NCBI RefSeq assembly: GCF_011045215.1
Contig: NZ_CP049201.1
DNA length: 64,000 nucleotides
Source: Escherichia coli
Lineage (GTDB): Bacteria; Pseudomonadota; Gammaproteobacteria; Enterobacterales; Enterobacteriaceae
Reading direction: 5' to 3' (one strand)
Positions 53,235 through 57,131 of the stretch are shown here, in pieces. The notes under the pieces were generated by a model, which saw nothing but the letters and a program-made list of their open reading frames with translations, was not told the origin of the DNA and made no database searches. The position numbers were made by a program, and so were the translations under genes. The stretch's first letter is position 1. Each line of letters begins with the position of its first letter.

Positions 53235-53573
53235 ATGGCGGAAAGCTTTACGACGACTAATCGATATTTCGACAATAAACATTATCCACGTGGATTCTCT
53301 CGCCATGGTGATTTCACCATCAAAGAGGCACAACTGCTTGAGCGTCATGGTTATGCCTTCAATGAGTTGGATCTTGGCAAACGCGAGCCGGTTACCGAGG
53401 AAGAGAAACTCTTCGTAGCAGTATGCCGTGGCGAACGTGAGCCAGTGACAGAAGCAGAACGCGTGTGGTCCAAGTATATGACGCGTATCAAGCGTCCAAA
53501 ACGTTTTCACACCCTTTCCGGCGGTAAACCGCAGGTTGAAGGTGCTGAAGACTACACCGATTCTGACGATTAA
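53235..53573 (+). CDS. yifE: YifE (MaoP) family protein
   Basis: 112 aa, [28 protein letters not shown]; synteny. Confidence 0.9.
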
Positions 53574-53600
53574 TAAAAAGGGCGAAATGCCCTTTTTTTA
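53574..53600. terminator. Bidirectional terminator between yifE and yifB
   Basis: aaaaagggcgaaatgcccttttttt. Confidence 0.7.
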
Positions 53601-55001
53601 TGTCAGTAGTTTTTGCAGATGGATGAGCAAACGGTCAATCGCACGATAGCTAACTGCCTCCTGCAAATGCTGACGTGTGATAATGTCAGACTGATCAATA
53701 TCAGCAATGGTTCGTGCAACTTTCAATAACCGCTGCCAGGCACGAATCGATAACCCCAGATGGATCAGCGTTTCTTCCAGCCACTGCGCATCTTCGCTCT
53801 CAAGCTTGCAGAATTTGCGTATTTCCGGACTATCCAGCCAGGCATTCAGTTTATTCTGCCGCTTAAATTGGCGCTCTCTGGCGGCCATTACGCGTTGTTT
53901 AACGGTGGCGCTGCTTTCTCCCGGCACTACCGTTTTACTCAAAATGCCGGGGGGTGGTAATGGGATCTCCAGTGAGAGATCGAAGCGGTCGAGAAAGGGC
54001 CCCGAGAGCCGGTTGAGATAACGTAATGTCTGTTCTGGCGTGCAGCGGTTATGGTTTCCCTGATAATGTCCGGTAGGGCTGGGATTCATCGCCGCAACAA
54101 GCTGGAAACGGGCTGGATAGGTTATTTTTGCTCGTGTGCGTGAAAGATGGATCTGCCCGGATTCAATCGGCTCTCGCAAAGCATCCAGTGTACGCCGTTC
54201 AAATTCAGGTAGCTCATCAAGAAAAAGCACGCCGTTATGCGCCAACGAAATTTCACCAGGCCCTGGAATTGCACCACCGCCCACCATCGCAGTTAACGAC
54301 GCACTGTGATGCGGTGAGCGGAACGGGCGCTGCCGCCATTGTTTTTGTACTGATTCAGCATTTACCAGACTTAATATCGCAGCGCTCTCCAGTGCCTCTT
54401 CATTGCTTAAATCTGGCAAAAGACCATTAATACGGCTGGCGAGCATTGTTTTACCTGTTCCCGGCGGTCCAATCAGTAAAAGGTTGTGCCCACCAGCGGC
54501 GGTAATTTCCAGTCCTCGCTTTCCTTGCTCCTGACCGACAACATCACTGAGATCATGTTGTAGCGCCCGGGATACTGCATCAGTTGGTTTCGGGCGTTCG
54601 AGAGTGTGCTTACCTTCCAGAAACGCACAGACAGCCTGCAGATGATCGGCTATCAAGCATCCTTCTCCGTTAATTAGCCCCACTTCATCTTCGTTATCTT
54701 TCGCGACGATAATTTTTCTGCCCGACTTAATAGCTTCAGTTGCACTGGAGATTGCGCCGGGAACGCCACGCAGAGCGCCTGTAAGCGCCAGTTCTCCGAC
54801 TAATTCATATTCATCTAACTTATTGGCTGTAAGCTGTTCTGAGGCCGCCAGCAACGCAATGGCGATAGGTAAATCATATCGTCCCCCTTCTTTTGGTAGA
54901 TCGGCTGGAGCAAGGTTAATGGTGATTTTTTTCGCCGGATATTCATATCCGCTATTTATAACTAAATTCGCATAACTTATTGAATCTAATTGATAAATCA
55001 C
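53598..55001 (-). CDS. yifB: YifB/ComM Mg-chelatase-like AAA+ ATPase, 5'-truncated with an element-derived 14-codon N-terminus
   Basis: ORF begins MIYQLDSISYANLV and then joins the conserved INSGYEYPAKKITINLAPADLPKEGG; the remembered native N-terminal ~45 residues (MSLSIVHTRAALGV...) are absent; Walker A GPPGTGKT present. Confidence 0.8.
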   Translation of the reverse strand: MIYQLDSISYANLVINSGYEYPAKKITINLAPADLPKEGGRYDLPIAIALLAASEQLTANKLDEYELVGELALTGALRGVPGAISSATEAIKSGRKIIVAKDNEDEVGLINGEGCLIADHLQAVCAFLEGKHTLERPKPTDAVSRALQHDLSDVVGQEQGKRGLEITAAGGHNLLLIGPPGTGKTMLASRINGLLPDLSNEEALESAAILSLVNAESVQKQWRQRPFRSPHHSASLTAMVGGGAIPGPGEISLAHNGVLFLDELPEFERRTLDALREPIESGQIHLSRTRAKITYPARFQLVAAMNPSPTGHYQGNHNRCTPEQTLRYLNRLSGPFLDRFDLSLEIPLPPPGILSKTVVPGESSATVKQRVMAARERQFKRQNKLNAWLDSPEIRKFCKLESEDAQWLEETLIHLGLSIRAWQRLLKVARTIADIDQSDIITRQHLQEAVSYRAIDRLLIHLQKLLT

Positions 55002-55386
55002 ACTATAAATAACGTTAGAAATCGCAAATTAACTACACCATTAACTACACCGTTCGGTGCACTGTATGGAACAACTTGGAACAAATAGACACAAGCGATA
55101 TACAGGAAGGGACAATTTTTCTATGCAGATTTGCATAGTTCCAAATGAAGCTGGTGGATGATCAGGGATAACCCGATATGGGAATCCCCATATCGGCATC
55201 GCGTAGTTAATCGTAGTGGCTACCGTAGTAGCCTCCGTAGTTGAGTCGCAGGGATGTAACAACCTGCCAGGAAGGAAATGATCGTGACTCGCCGTGACAT
55301 GACGTGATTAATCGTGACACCAAACAAAAAGCCTTACCCGTAGGCTTAATGCTTGGCTTGACTGTAGGCTTACCGTAACGCGCCGC

Positions 55387-55566
55387 TCACCGTCGCAGCC
55401 TGTCCGGTTTCCGCCACTGATACGGCCTCACATTATCATGCTGGTGGCGTTCCTGTTGCAGCACAACGGAAACAGGCGCTGAACACCTGTTAATTTTGCT
55501 TGCTGGTTGTTTGATTCCGGCAATGCTGCGGATCATCTTCAGCAAATCGGCTTCGGTGATGGTCAT
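55387..55566 (-). CDS. Possible small protein (59 aa) near element end
   Basis: Minus-strand ORF MTITEADLLKMIRSIAGIKQPASKINR... hand-translated; below ORF-track threshold; no clear RBS. Confidence 0.25.
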   Translation of the reverse strand: MTITEADLLKMIRSIAGIKQPASKINRCSAPVSVVLQQERHQHDNVRPYQWRKPDRLRR

Positions 55567-55589
55567 GGTTTACACCTTAGGAAATCTTA

Positions 55590-55860
55590 GGGGGCTGGTT
55601 GACACTTTCCGGCTTAAGACCTTAACAAACCTTAACATCGCAGGTTGACACACTTGACACTTTTTCGCGAAAAACCTTATCAAACCTTAGCATTTCTAAG
55701 CATGGCAACTTGACACTTTTCGCGATTTTTTTCGGCTTTTTGACGTGGTAAATCTGGCGCAAGGCCAGTAACGGCGGGGCTTACAGCGAGGTTGACACTT
55801 TTTCGCGTTCAGAGTGTAAAGTGTCAACCCGGCAAGCTGCTCAACTTGACACTTTTTGAT
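55590..55860. repeat. Array of at least 7 TTGACAC(T)n CGCG iteron-like repeats
   Basis: ggttgacactttcc, ggttgacacacttgacactttttcgcg, cttgacacttttcgcg, ggttgacactttttcgcg, gtgtcaacc (inverted), cttgacactttttgatg. Confidence 0.8.
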
Positions 55861-55861
55861 G

Positions 55862-56389
55862 TCATTGATGGTCTGATTTTTCCCATTCAGCCAGGGCGTT
55901 TAGCCCGGCTTCACTCCATGATTCCAGTTCATCGGCATAATCACCTGCAACATAGCAGAGTTCGCAACGCAGCATACGAATTGCCAGCCTGGCATTACCT
56001 CGCAAATTGTATTGTTCAAAGTAATGCTGCCCGTCGCAATCCTCAAGGCAGATAGCACCATCATCAAGAAAGTGCACTTCCCAGCCTAATTCCCCGGCTG
56101 CATCCAGCACACGCTGCTGTATGCCCTCGTCCGTTGCTGGCGCAGGAATTTTACCGTCTCTGGCCTTAACTGCTTTCCAGAACTCGCCCCACGTCATTTC
56201 CAGCGTTCTCTCTGGCCACATTTCAGAAACTGTGTCTTTTCCCTGTGCTGGTGGGCTGTTCCGCTGCTCTGTCGCTTCCACATCGATTTTTTTACCGGAC
56301 ATGACCACTTCGCCTTTCTCGATCCAGTCGTAAACTGTCTGGCGGCTTACGCCTTTGTGTTTGGCATATTCTGCCTTACTCATCAGCAT
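55862..56389 (-). CDS. HTH protein resembling phage small terminase subunit / packaging-redirection protein
   Basis: 175 aa; N-terminal MSKAEYAKHKGVSRQTVYDWIEKG helix-turn-helix typical of TerS-like proteins. Confidence 0.55.
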   Translation of the reverse strand: MLMSKAEYAKHKGVSRQTVYDWIEKGEVVMSGKKIDVEATEQRNSPPAQGKDTVSEMWPERTLEMTWGEFWKAVKARDGKIPAPATDEGIQQRVLDAAGELGWEVHFLDDGAICLEDCDGQHYFEQYNLRGNARLAIRMLRCELCYVAGDYADELESWSEAGLNALAEWEKSDHQ

Positions 56390-56395
56390 TATGAC

Positions 56396-57067
56396 TCACC
56401 CTTCTTTTTCCAGTTGAGCCAGCCGCCCGGATATTTCTTCCAGTTTTTCCAGGGCTGGCTTGCAGGCCGCATCAATAACGTCCCGGACCATTCCGGCAAG
56501 CTGCTCTTCTGCTGTCGGCGTTGTTACCTCCACACCCGATGGTTTCCCATCCTTATCCCATACGCCCAACGGTACGAGTGCAACGTGATCGATAAGAAAT
56601 GGCGTACCCTCAATAAAAAAATTGTCCTCGCCCATTACATCAGGAACTTCAGCCCCACCGGACGCACCACAAAACACAACCGACGGACTGGTGGATACCT
56701 CCCCCCGTGCTTTCTGGATGTAATCGATGATTTCCTGCCCGTAAATCCGGCATACGCCCCACACCTCGTCACCGCGAATATACGGCAACATGACGGTGCC
56801 AATAATGCGCGACCGTTCGCCCACGTCTTCAAGGGTTTTGCTTTCGGGATGGTCGATAATGACGGGTACTCCGGCGCAACGTTCCAGGAACTGCGGATTG
56901 AGATAAGTTTGCGGTGAACGCCAGACAAATTCTTTTTCTTCGGCGCGGTAGGCCATTCCGGTTCCTGTGATACGCAGGTTAACCAGCCACATGTTGGAAA
57001 ACTGATAAGGCGACGGTAGCTGTCCGTCCCGAATCTGCTTCGCCGCCTCAATTTCTGTTAAAAGCAT
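56396..57067 (-). CDS. Hypothetical protein (223 aa), element cargo or morphogenesis
   Basis: ORF with host-like GC, tightly spaced between neighbouring genes; no recognisable motif. Confidence 0.6.
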   Translation of the reverse strand: MLLTEIEAAKQIRDGQLPSPYQFSNMWLVNLRITGTGMAYRAEEKEFVWRSPQTYLNPQFLERCAGVPVIIDHPESKTLEDVGERSRIIGTVMLPYIRGDEVWGVCRIYGQEIIDYIQKARGEVSTSPSVVFCGASGGAEVPDVMGEDNFFIEGTPFLIDHVALVPLGVWDKDGKPSGVEVTTPTAEEQLAGMVRDVIDAACKPALEKLEEISGRLAQLEKEG

Positions 57068-57131
57068 AATGTTATCCGGTTATAAGCAATAAGCCCCGCC
57101 AAATCCGGCAGGGCTGAAATCAGCACGTTTT

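What the first reader, a model, noticed from the sequence alone, without database searches (positions are those of the whole stretch)
54900..55010. Mobile element has replaced the 5' end of yifB/comM, creating a chimeric N-terminus
The yifB ORF here starts MIYQLDSISYANLV and joins the conserved INSGYEYPAKK; the remembered native N-terminal domain (about 45 residues) is missing, and the next core gene (ilvL) is absent. comM is a known hotspot for genomic-island integration in other bacteria (for example Acinetobacter AbaR islands). The chimera may be non-functional or N-terminally altered.
Basis: partly seen in the sequence, partly recalled or inferred. Interest (0 to 1): 0.6.

Follow-up and report, generated by a model that had tools for sequence, protein, structure and literature searches.

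The report
Phage satellite island splits comM
A roughly 12-kb phage-satellite island has inserted itself by site-specific recombination into codon 53 of the E. coli comM/yifB gene, leaving a headless gene fragment; this is a real but ordinary and already catalogued kind of event.

Summary
The 467-aa ORF at 53598-55001 (- strand) is residues 54-506 of ComM/YifB, preceded by 14 residues read from foreign DNA. Homology to K-12 yifB stops at window base 54961.

The interpretation needs correcting. The 5' end was most likely not replaced. A PICI-type phage satellite integrated at a 15-16 bp attachment core (ATCCGCTATT[T/G]ATAA, window 54947-54961) and split the gene. The island runs off the window at 64000, so its integrase, its second att copy, the comM 5' fragment and ilvL cannot be seen here.

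In 26 complete E. coli genomes with the same junction type, the far side reads integrase, then core, then comM codons 1-58, then ilvL. The same integrase type (93-98% identical) also uses the smrA-abgR intergenic site. The island-borne core differs between the two sites only in a 6-bp stretch that matches the respective target.

The chimeric N-terminus is a by-product of ORF calling. It has no Shine-Dalgarno sequence and no promoter-like site, and a terminator-like hairpin lies upstream. The extension is not conserved in sister islands, and a third of the Lon-like hexamerisation domain is gone.

comM disruption by mobile elements is well documented, and yifB is already listed as an integration target. 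Interest is low.

The parts
53598..54961 (-). 3' portion of comM/yifB: last two bases of codon 53, codons 54-506 and the stop codon. A promoterless gene fragment.
   Evidence: 97.7% identical to K-12 yifB over 1413 nt, ending at 54961. BLASTP aligns it to YifB residues 53-506. Equivalent fragments are annotated as pseudogenes missing the N-terminus.
54947..54961 (.). att core at the integrase-distal junction, ATCCGCTATTTATAA. The crossover lies inside ATCCGCTATT. The T at 54957 is the island (attP) allele of a synonymous G/T difference.
   Evidence: The same core occurs at both ends of comM-borne islands in L001, L015 and L016: the T variant at the distal end and the G variant next to the integrase.
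54962..55001 (-). Island-derived bases read in the comM frame, giving the GTG start and residues MIYQLDSISYANL(V) of the mechanical ORF.
   Evidence: No Shine-Dalgarno sequence lies in the 25 nt upstream (TGCGATTTCTAACGTTATTTATAGT). The extension is not conserved in L001, L015 or L016.
54962..64000 (.). Left 9 kb of a PICI-type phage-satellite island, truncated by the window end. About 3.4 kb more is inferred beyond the window, carrying an antirepressor, alpA and the integrase.
   Evidence: Mosaic matches to islands in 1806 of 5426 E. coli genomes. The window is collinear with L012 up to window 64000 = L012 10671, and the L012 island ends at 14044.
55028..55096 (.). Block of arm-type repeats (ACTACACC x2, GGAACAA x2), a candidate integrase arm-binding region on the P' arm.
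   Evidence: A 59-69 nt block with 74-78% identity is found in direct orientation at both ends of L001, L011 and L012. The integrases carry the Arm-DNA-bind_3 domain.
55329..55347 (-). Terminator-like hairpin followed by a T-run, downstream of the last island gene and 330 bp upstream of the chimeric start.
55387..55566 (-). Conserved 59-aa island ORF of unknown function; the last gene of the island.
   Evidence: Annotated or called in L001 and in L004-L012 at the same relative position.
55599..55861 (.). Array of TTGACACTTTT(T) repeats (at least 5 copies) interleaved with CCTTAAC/CCTTAGC. A candidate packaging or regulatory site.
   Evidence: conserved in L001, L011 and L012.
55862..56389 (-). 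175-aa protein whose N-terminal helix-turn-helix resembles a terminase small subunit.
   Evidence: phrog_57 terminase small subunit, E = 1.4e-7, residues 1-42. No match to solved Rpp structures.
56396..57067 (-). DUF2213 protein (Pa193_gp24 family), distantly related to prohead proteases.
   Evidence: phrog_6216 E = 1e-80 and phrog_530 head maturation protease E = 5e-5; PF09979 in relatives.
57132..57725 (-). Protein matching the C-terminal third of the same phage family (phrog_6216).
   Evidence: Relatives are annotated 'NUDIX hydrolase' by PGAP.
58131..58418 (-). PerC-family transcriptional regulator.
   Evidence: phrog_994 and transcriptional-activator families; PF06069 in relatives.
58415..58957 (-). 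ProQ/FinO-family RNA-binding protein.
59098..59425 (.). CCCCACTTTT iterons with a 38-nt inverted repeat: a RepA-type replication origin.
   Evidence: the same repeats lie next to RepA helicase genes in L001 and L012.
59424..59771 (-). 115-aa remnant of the 3' end of a RepA-type helicase gene, a scar of a replicon-module swap.
   Evidence: Matches only the C-terminal part of phrog_2850. Window 58998-59836 matches L001 24654-25494, which includes the last 414 nt of the RepA gene.
59862..60113 (.). GGTAGATAG/TCTACC iterons with 22-nt inverted repeats (91% complementary), next to the primase gene.
60148..61896 (-). P4-family primase/helicase (D5_N, DUF5906), 582 aa.
   Evidence: phrog_864 E = 7e-143; TIGR01613 109.3 bits against a cut-off of 108.7; PF08706 and PF19263.
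61893..62183 (-). DUF4222 protein.
63330..63629 (+). 99-aa conserved island gene (phrog_6522), the only island gene in the window on the opposite strand.
   Evidence: The exact protein occurs in 317 blocks of the collection, always inside islands of this family.

Best explanation
A roughly 12-kb phage satellite of the Gram-negative PICI kind integrated into comM by tyrosine-integrase site-specific recombination. Its module order, from the far end toward comM, is int, alpA, small genes, DUF4222, primase plus origin, ProQ, PerC, DUF2213, TerS-like gene.

The island's attP core is an inverted repeat, TTATAAA-N9-TTTATAA. Its central stretch ATCCGC(TATT) is identical to comM codons 54-58 (I-N-S-G-Y). 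Strand exchange inside that stretch split the gene into two pieces. A 58-codon 5' piece stays attached to the comM promoter and now reads into the integrase gene. A 453-codon 3' piece has no promoter and no native start. The window shows only the integrase-distal junction and the first 9 kb of the island.

The 467-aa 'chimeric' ORF arises because the comM reading frame happens to stay open for 23 codons into the island arm and meets a GTG there. It is most likely not expressed. If it were made, it would lack the first 53 residues of the Lon-like domain that forms the ComM hexamer ring, so comM is functionally knocked out while the island is resident. Excision at the core would restore an intact comM, because the only core difference is a synonymous Ile codon.

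Shown here: the breakpoint, the core, the island's gene content, and the structure of both junctions in related genomes. Inferred: the far end of this particular copy, the lack of expression, the loss of function and the reversibility.
For: Breakpoint at 54961, in codon 53. The junction is identical in four comM-borne islands...GGATATTCATAT|CCGCTATTTATAA|island at the distal end, and island TTTATAAAAAT|CCGCTATTGATAA|TGGCG next to a 409-aa integrase, followed by comM codons 1-58 and ilvL.

The uninterrupted target is present in 5397 of 5425 complete E. coli genomes, and 26 genomes carry the integrase/comM-5' junction. The 59-aa truncated product ending ...INSGFL is on record in 2916 blocks of the protein collection. 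In all 10 contigs inspected it lies between ilvL and a 409-415-aa Arm-DNA-bind_3/Phage_integrase gene.

Arm-type repeat blocks occur at both island ends. Island gene content matches the described E. coli PICIs, which carry integrase, AlpA, PerC and a primase and lack structural or lysis genes (PMC11773190; PMC6092414).

The same integrase type (93-98% aa identity, one diagnostic residue among five sequences) also sits at smrA-abgR. There the core differs only in TCACGA versus ATCCGC, and each version matches its own target. The two targets are 20/27 identical.

No sigma-70-like site was found in 54700-56500, and a terminator-like hairpin lies at 55347-55329. There is no Shine-Dalgarno sequence, and the extension is not conserved. 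The ChlI/Lon-like domain spans residues 21-142. The Lon ring is the hexamerisation scaffold, and K43/K46/K64 contact DNA in L. pneumophila ComM (PDB 8rxd; PMC11612176).
Against: The integrase, the second core copy and the comM 5' fragment of this particular island lie outside the window and could not be retrieved. The exact chimeric protein and the exact primase occur only on short contigs of one SRA run, and two genome-contig scans found nothing. The far end is therefore inferred from relatives.

No excised attP form was found in viral contigs, so there is no direct evidence that this lineage is currently mobile. Expression was judged only from consensus scans; read-through past the hairpin or a non-canonical promoter cannot be excluded. 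The packaging-module proteins are not demonstrable homologues of characterised Rpp or capsid-redirecting proteins, so the label 'PICI' rests on architecture.
Confidence: 0.88

Rival explanations
1. Replacement or deletion. The element, or a later rearrangement at its far end, removed the comM 5' end and ilvL, so the gene cannot be restored.
For: Neither the comM 5' end nor ilvL is in the window, and the far end of this copy could not be recovered. The island is visibly mosaic and carries a truncated RepA gene, so it has undergone rearrangements.
Against: The break lies exactly on the att core. All 26 complete genomes with the integrase/comM-5' junction, and the 10 assemblies inspected, retain the 5' fragment and ilv genes. 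The window ends inside the island at a position collinear with intact relatives.
Confidence: 0.06
2. A functional neo-ComM. The island end supplies a new start and N-terminus, so an N-terminally altered but active ComM is made, perhaps driven by island transcription.
For: An uninterrupted 467-aa ORF with a GTG start exists and was called as a gene by an automatic pipeline. All neighbouring island genes point toward it.
Against: There is no Shine-Dalgarno sequence and no promoter-like site, and a terminator-like hairpin lies upstream. The extension differs completely among sister islands, and ETEC1748 has no in-frame start at all. Fifty-three residues of the Lon-like scaffold domain are missing, including the residues aligned with DNA-contacting K43 and K46.
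Confidence: 0.04
3. Selected targeting. The satellite uses comM because inactivating ComM protects the island from recombination-mediated curing, as proposed for comM-targeting elements in naturally competent species. On this reading, comM is not merely a convenient conserved sequence.
For: comM is disrupted by unrelated elements in many Gram-negative species (PMC12378983). In S. Typhi the prophage ST35 core lies 3 nt from this core in comM (PMC7192596 supplement). yifB is listed as a regulated-gene-integrity candidate.
Against: comM is occupied in only about 0.5% of complete E. coli genomes. The sister site of the same integrase type is intergenic and is discontinuous in about 29% of genomes. 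The two targets are 20/27 identical, which is sufficient to explain capture of comM as a look-alike site. E. coli is at best weakly transformable (general knowledge).
Confidence: 0.12
4. A Tn7-like or other transposon insertion, as for AbaR islands in Acinetobacter comM.
Against: No transposase-like genes occur in the 9 kb seen. The junction is a 15-16 bp core shared with the island's other end rather than a short target duplication, and a tyrosine integrase sits at the far end in relatives.
Confidence: 0.01

Closest known systems
Gram-negative phage-inducible chromosomal islands (EcCICFT073, EcCIEDL933, EcCIMP1; Fillol-Salom 2018, PMC6092414; PMC11773190)
   Same: Size of about 12 kb, near-unidirectional gene order, a primase with adjacent iterons, a PerC-family regulator, no capsid, tail or lysis genes, and (in relatives) integrase plus AlpA at one end. 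Integration is at a dedicated chromosomal att site.
   Different: The packaging module (TerS-like HTH protein, DUF2213 protein, phrog_6216 C-terminal protein) shows no detectable similarity to the solved Rpp proteins. The att site lies inside a coding sequence and inactivates it. I found no statement in the accessible papers that yifB is one of the eight E. coli PICI att sites.
Capsid-forming PICIs (cf-PICIs) resident in comM of other E. coli strains (e.g. O177:H21 NZ_CP016546, E203449)
   Same: The same integrase type, the same att core, the same junctions, and the same int-alpA-DUF4222-replicase-ProQ backbone.
   Different: Those islands carry capsid, protease, portal, connector, HNH, TerS and TerL genes where the window's island has PerC, DUF2213 and the TerS-like gene.
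Integrative elements that split comM/yifB, catalogued by TIGER (Mageeney 2020, PMC7192596), e.g. S. Typhi prophage ST35
   Same: Integrase-mediated insertion within the 5' part of comM that truncates the protein. yifB is named there as a regulated-gene-integrity candidate. The ST35 core begins 3 nt from this core.
   Different: ST35 is a 34-kb prophage with a different 26-bp core (aatttccggctaaaaaaataaccatt). I did not compare its integrase with this one.
AbaR/Tn6022-type resistance islands in Acinetobacter baumannii comM
   Same: The same target gene and the same consequence (comM interrupted).
   Different: Those are Tn7-like transposons carrying transposition genes. This element is a tyrosine-integrase satellite with a 15-16 bp recombination core.
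Lambda site-affinity (overlap-region) logic of tyrosine integrases
   Same: Two att specificities differ only in the central 6 bp between conserved inverted core repeats, while the integrase is essentially unchanged.
   Different: This is inferred from natural variants only. No recombination assay was done.

Membership tests
Tyrosine-integrase site-specific integration (attL/attR junction) | The same core sequence is present at both ends of the element | tested here: inconclusive
   Only one end is in the window. In L001, L015 and L016 the core CCGCTATT[T/G]ATAA is present at both ends.
Tyrosine-integrase site-specific integration (attL/attR junction) | Integrase gene adjacent to one junction | tested here: inconclusive
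   Not in the window. It is present in all 26 complete genomes with this junction and in all 10 contigs inspected.
Tyrosine-integrase site-specific integration (attL/attR junction) | An uninterrupted empty site exists in related genomes, and the break falls exactly on it | tested here: met
   5397 of 5425 genomes have the contiguous site. The break at 54961 is in the core.
Tyrosine-integrase site-specific integration (attL/attR junction) | Arm-type repeats flanking the core, and an integrase with an arm-binding domain | tested here: met
   Window 55028-55096 matches the repeat block found at both ends of L001, L011 and L012. PF13356 is present in the integrases. Binding itself was not tested.
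Gram-negative PICI | Integrase plus AlpA regulator at one end | tested here: inconclusive
   Outside the window; present in collinear relatives.
Gram-negative PICI | Own primase/replicase with an adjacent iteron origin | tested here: met
   Primase at 60148-61896; iterons at 59862-60113 and 59098-59425.
Gram-negative PICI | No phage structural or lysis genes; size 12-15 kb | tested here: met
   No capsid, portal, tail or lysis families among the 10 proteins scanned. The inferred size is about 12.4 kb. The last 3.4 kb was not seen.
Gram-negative PICI | Induction and high-frequency transfer by a helper phage | not testable with these tools
   This needs an experiment. No attP form was found in viral contigs.
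P4-like satellite | psu, delta and sid capsid-size genes together with the alpha primase | tested here: not met
   Only the P4-family primase domain matches. No psu/delta/sid-like families were found.
AbaR / Tn7-like comM island | Transposition genes (tnsABC/tni) and a short target-site duplication | tested here: not met
   None among the ORFs of 55002-64000. The junction is a 15-16 bp att core.
Regulated gene integrity (reversible gene disruption by an integrative element) | Integration interrupts the coding sequence | tested here: met
Regulated gene integrity (reversible gene disruption by an integrative element) | Precise excision recreates an intact gene | tested here: met
   By reconstruction only. 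The cores differ by one synonymous base (ATC/ATA Ile54), so either product is in frame.
Regulated gene integrity (reversible gene disruption by an integrative element) | Excision is regulated and changes a phenotype | not testable with these tools
   This needs an experiment.

The most novel reading that the evidence does not exclude
Integration places the satellite's integrase directly downstream of, and co-oriented with, the comM promoter and the first 58 codons of comM. The rest of the island reads in the same direction toward the comM 3' fragment. If comM in E. coli is induced with the competence (Sxy/CRP-S) regulon, which I recall from memory and did not test, host competence signals would drive integrase transcription. 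They could then trigger excision that simultaneously restores comM. That would be a reversible switch coupling satellite mobility to the host recombination state, and this coupling (or protection from ComM-dependent curing) would be what selects for comM as a target.
Probability: 0.08. Interest if true: 0.55.

Novelty: new member of a known kind. Interest (0 to 1): 0.22.

Why it matters
For annotation, the 467-aa ORF should be called a comM pseudogene fragment next to an att junction, not a variant YifB. The strain should be regarded as comM-negative while the island is resident.

More generally, the locus is a clean natural example of one satellite integrase type serving two chromosomal targets. 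The choice appears to be set by six bases carried on the island. This could be used to retarget PICI-based delivery vehicles. It also adds E. coli to the list of species in which comM is a landing site for mobile elements. None of this overturns current understanding.

Tried and rejected
1. I tried to recover the far end of this exact island. Exact-protein look-ups of the primase and of the chimeric ORF returned only 2.6-kb and 7.5-kb contigs from a single run, SRR11014969. None of ten contigs carrying the 59-aa ComM fragment holds the same island.

2. Two scans of one-genome-per-species contigs, using the distal and the integrase-proximal junction patterns, found nothing.

3. Scans of viral contigs for the excised attP of the comM type and of the abgR type found nothing.

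4. I tested whether the TerS-like 175-aa protein is an Rpp homologue. There was no significant PDB match and no NCBIfam match.

5. I looked for a lambda/phi80-type cos core in the island. The only hit was a 2-mismatch match inside the primase gene, at chance level.

6. I searched the PICI and cf-PICI papers and supplements for yifB or comM as a named att site and found none.

7. I considered a transposon origin and a functional neo-N-terminus. Both were rejected on the evidence listed under the rival explanations.
Full report
**What is at the coordinates**

The window carries the E. coli rrnC region followed by tRNA-Asp, tRNA-Trp, hdfR and maoP (yifE). The yifB/comM reading frame follows on the minus strand at 53598-55001 (the gene order matches the annotated records). 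The mechanical ORF is 467 aa with a GTG start and begins MIYQLDSISYANLVINSGYEYPAKK.

Against K-12 YifB (506 aa), ORF residues 14-467 align to residues 53-506 at 99% identity. Nothing aligns to residues 1-52. At the DNA level the match to K-12 runs from 53549 to 54961 at 97.7% and then ends abruptly. Base 54961 corresponds to nt 158 of the CDS, in codon 53.

- 53 native residues are missing, not about 45.
- The foreign part is 13 island-coded residues plus one hybrid codon.

No sequence resembling the first 157 nt of comM, ilvL or ilvX is present anywhere in the window.

**What the foreign DNA is**

From 54962 to the window end the sequence belongs to a mosaic island family that has matches in 1806 of 5426 complete E. 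coli genomes. Reading from the junction, the window holds:
- a conserved 59-aa ORF;
- a 175-aa protein whose N-terminal helix-turn-helix resembles a terminase small subunit;
- a DUF2213 protein, distantly related to prohead proteases;
- a protein matching the C-terminal part of the same phage family;
- a PerC-family regulator;
- a ProQ/FinO protein;
- a 115-aa remnant of a RepA helicase gene;
- a 582-aa P4-family primase flanked by iterons;
- a DUF4222 protein and several small genes.

All but one of these genes are on the minus strand. No capsid, portal, tail or lysis genes were found. In collinear relatives the island continues with an antirepressor, an AlpA-family regulator and a tyrosine integrase.

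This is the architecture described for Gram-negative phage-inducible chromosomal islands: integrase, AlpA, primase, often PerC, about 12-15 kb, transcribed in one direction (PMC6092414; PMC11773190). The window ends at a position equal to L012 10671, and that island ends at 14044. About 3.4 kb of this copy therefore lies beyond the window, and its full size is inferred to be about 12.4 kb.

**How it got there**

Three complete genomes carry a closely related island next to comM. In ETEC1748 the annotation reads as follows: yifB pseudogene missing its N-terminus, then the island, then a tyrosine integrase, then a 174-nt 'magnesium chelatase domain' pseudogene missing its C-terminus, then ilvL.

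Aligning both junctions with K-12 shows a duplicated core:
- Distal junction: ...GGATATTCATAT CCGCTATT T ATAA + island.
- Integrase-proximal junction: island ...TTTATAAAAAT CCGCTATT G ATAA TGGCG...

The window's junction (54947-54961) is the distal one and carries the T variant. Two further comM-borne islands, in E203449 and O177:H21, have the same two junctions, although they are capsid-forming PICIs with a different cargo. The G/T difference is synonymous (ATC versus ATA, Ile54). It places the crossover to the left of that base, within ATCCGCTATT.

The reconstructed island attP reads TTATAAA-AATCCGCTA-TTTATAA, a perfect 7-bp inverted repeat around a 9-bp spacer. This is the usual layout of core-type sites around an overlap region (read directly from the sequences). 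A 59-69-nt block of short repeats (ACTACACC, GGAACAA) occurs in direct orientation near both ends of three islands, and at 55028-55096 in the window. The integrases carry the Arm-DNA-bind_3 domain.

Together these features mark lambda-type site-specific integration. They do not fit transposition or deletion.

**How common it is**

A 501-nt probe spanning the site is contiguous in 5397 of 5425 complete E. coli genomes. Twenty-six genomes carry the integrase/core/comM-5' junction. Occupancy is therefore about 0.5%.

The hosts are diverse: pig and human ETEC, chicken isolates and a wild rodent isolate. Nucleotide identity across the integrase gene and junction probe ranges from 93.5 to 100%, and the cargo differs among islands. 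This points to repeated independent insertions.

The truncated 59-aa product (MSLS...AIINSGFL) is on record in 2916 blocks of the large protein collection. In all ten contigs inspected it lies between the ilv operon and a 409-415-aa integrase. The exact chimeric 467-aa protein and the exact primase of the window occur only in one sequencing run, SRR11014969.

**One integrase type, two targets**

Integrases from comM-borne islands are 93-98% identical to those of islands inserted between smrA (ydaL) and abgR. The O177:H21 comM integrase is closer to the abgR-site integrases (98%) than to the other comM-site integrases (93-94%). Only one residue separates the two groups among the five sequences compared.

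The abgR-site junctions are GATTATTCAT TCACGATATT T ATAA + island, and island TTTATAAAA TCACGATATT A ATAA TGTAAC. Aligned from the right, the two chromosomal targets are identical at 20 of 27 positions. The two attP versions differ only in the central ATCCGC versus TCACGA, and each matches its own target.

The reconstructed empty abgR site exists at up to 100% identity in 3824 of 5426 genomes. That site is therefore discontinuous far more often than comM, although part of this reflects a divergent locus rather than occupancy.

My inference is that target choice is set by the overlap bases carried on the island, and that comM was captured as a look-alike of the intergenic site. This follows the established requirement of lambda-type integrases for overlap identity. 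It was not tested here.

**Is the chimeric protein real?**

Four lines of evidence argue against it.
- The 25 nt upstream of the GTG (TGCGATTTCTAACGTTATTTATAGT) contain no Shine-Dalgarno sequence.
- No sigma-70-like site was found on either strand between 54700 and 56500, against 2.2 expected by chance. A hairpin plus T-run follows the last island gene at 55347-55329 on the coding strand.
- In sister islands the in-frame extension is IVLI with no start codon (ETEC1748), or 10-15 unrelated residues with a TTG near the junction. The extension is therefore not under selection.
- Pfam places the ChlI/Lon-like domain at residues 21-142 and the AAA+ core at 189-386. The cryo-EM structure of L. pneumophila ComM (8rxd) aligns without gaps over the first 102 residues. 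It shows the Lon-like domains forming the hexamer scaffold ring, with K43, K46 and K64 contacting DNA (PMC11612176).

Removing residues 1-53 deletes a third of that domain, including the residues aligned with two of the three contact positions. PGAP annotates the equivalent fragments as pseudogenes. I conclude that the ORF is a by-product of ORF calling and that comM is inactive while the island is present. Excision at the core would restore it.

**Comparison with what is known**

Interruption of comM by mobile elements is documented in A. baumannii, Aggregatibacter, Mannheimia, Pseudomonas syringae, Francisella and V. cholerae. It has been interpreted as protection of the element against transformation-mediated curing (PMC12378983). 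E. coli is not in that list.

The TIGER survey names yifB among genes whose integrity is controlled by integrative elements (PMC7192596). Its supplement maps the S. Typhi prophage ST35 to a 26-bp comM core that starts 3 nt from the core described here. I found no paper in the accessible library that names yifB as a PICI att site.

The finding is thus a further member of a known kind: a PICI-type satellite at a catalogued but minor att site.

**What remains open**

The far end of this copy is inferred, not seen. No excised form was found in viral contigs, and neither junction occurs in any species-representative genome. The packaging module is uncharacterised, and the TerS-like protein is not detectably an Rpp homologue.

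It is untested whether comM targeting is selected or incidental. It is also untested whether the comM promoter, which now reads through 58 codons into the integrase gene, influences excision.

Noticed in passing
window 55599-55861: At least five copies of TTGACACTTTT(T), interleaved with CCTTAAC/CCTTAGC motifs and a 21-nt inverted pair. They lie between the TerS-like gene and the 59-aa ORF and are conserved in related islands (L001 20528-20795, L012 2927-3188). Possibly the island's packaging or regulatory site.
   Followed up: partly
window 55275-55320: A run of CGTGAC(A/T) motifs at about 10-bp spacing (cgtgactcgccgtgacatgacgtgattaatcgtgacacc). L012 has three 20-nt copies at 2591-2630. The binding partner is unknown.
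   Followed up: no
window 59098-60113: Two different iteron sets sit side by side. CCCCACTTTT repeats with a 38-nt inverted repeat lie next to a 115-aa RepA helicase remnant (59424-59771). GGTAGATAG/TCTACC repeats lie next to the intact P4-type primase. This looks like a scar of a replicon-module swap that left two origins.
   Followed up: partly
window 56396-57725: Two adjacent ORFs (223 aa and 197 aa) match positions 115-328 and 402-544 of one 545-position phage family profile (phrog_6216). The first is also weakly protease-like. It may be a split or remodelled prohead protease/scaffold used for capsid interference. PGAP calls the second a 'NUDIX hydrolase' in relatives, which the profile searches here did not support.
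   Followed up: no
window 55002-55386; L004, L009, L010, L011 near their integrase-distal ends: In relatives, the slot between the att core and the 59-aa ORF holds variable cargo: a SEFIR/TIR protein, SocA_Panacea, DUF3800, a CoiA-like nuclease, a lytic transglycosylase, or DUF4747. That suggests a defence-gene hotspot. The slot is empty in the window's island.
   Followed up: no
window 54936-54951: The comM codons for G-Y-E-Y-P form a near-perfect palindrome (CGGATAT TC ATATCCG) that abuts and overlaps the crossover stretch. The sister target at smrA-abgR has no such palindrome, so it is probably coincidental.
   Followed up: no
comM codons 53-67 (window about 54915-54961) compared with S. 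Typhi CT18: Two different elements use adjacent segments of the same conserved stretch IINSGYE(Y/F)PAKKITI: this satellite's core, and the 26-bp core of prophage ST35, which starts 3 nt away. This is a micro-hotspot within comM.
   Followed up: partly
L015 6707-10498 (E. coli E203449): The cf-PICI resident in comM of this strain has its major capsid gene split by an IS21-family element (istA/istB), so that copy is probably no longer able to form capsids.
   Followed up: no
window 58131-58418: The island carries a PerC-family regulator. Homologues on other E. coli PICIs have been reported to activate or silence the LEE pathogenicity island (PMC11773190).
   Followed up: no
window 62765-63967: The 400-aa minus-strand ORF listed here is a mechanical artefact. 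It overlaps, in antisense, the conserved 99-aa gene at 63330-63629, and it spans a region that related islands annotate as several small genes.
   Followed up: no
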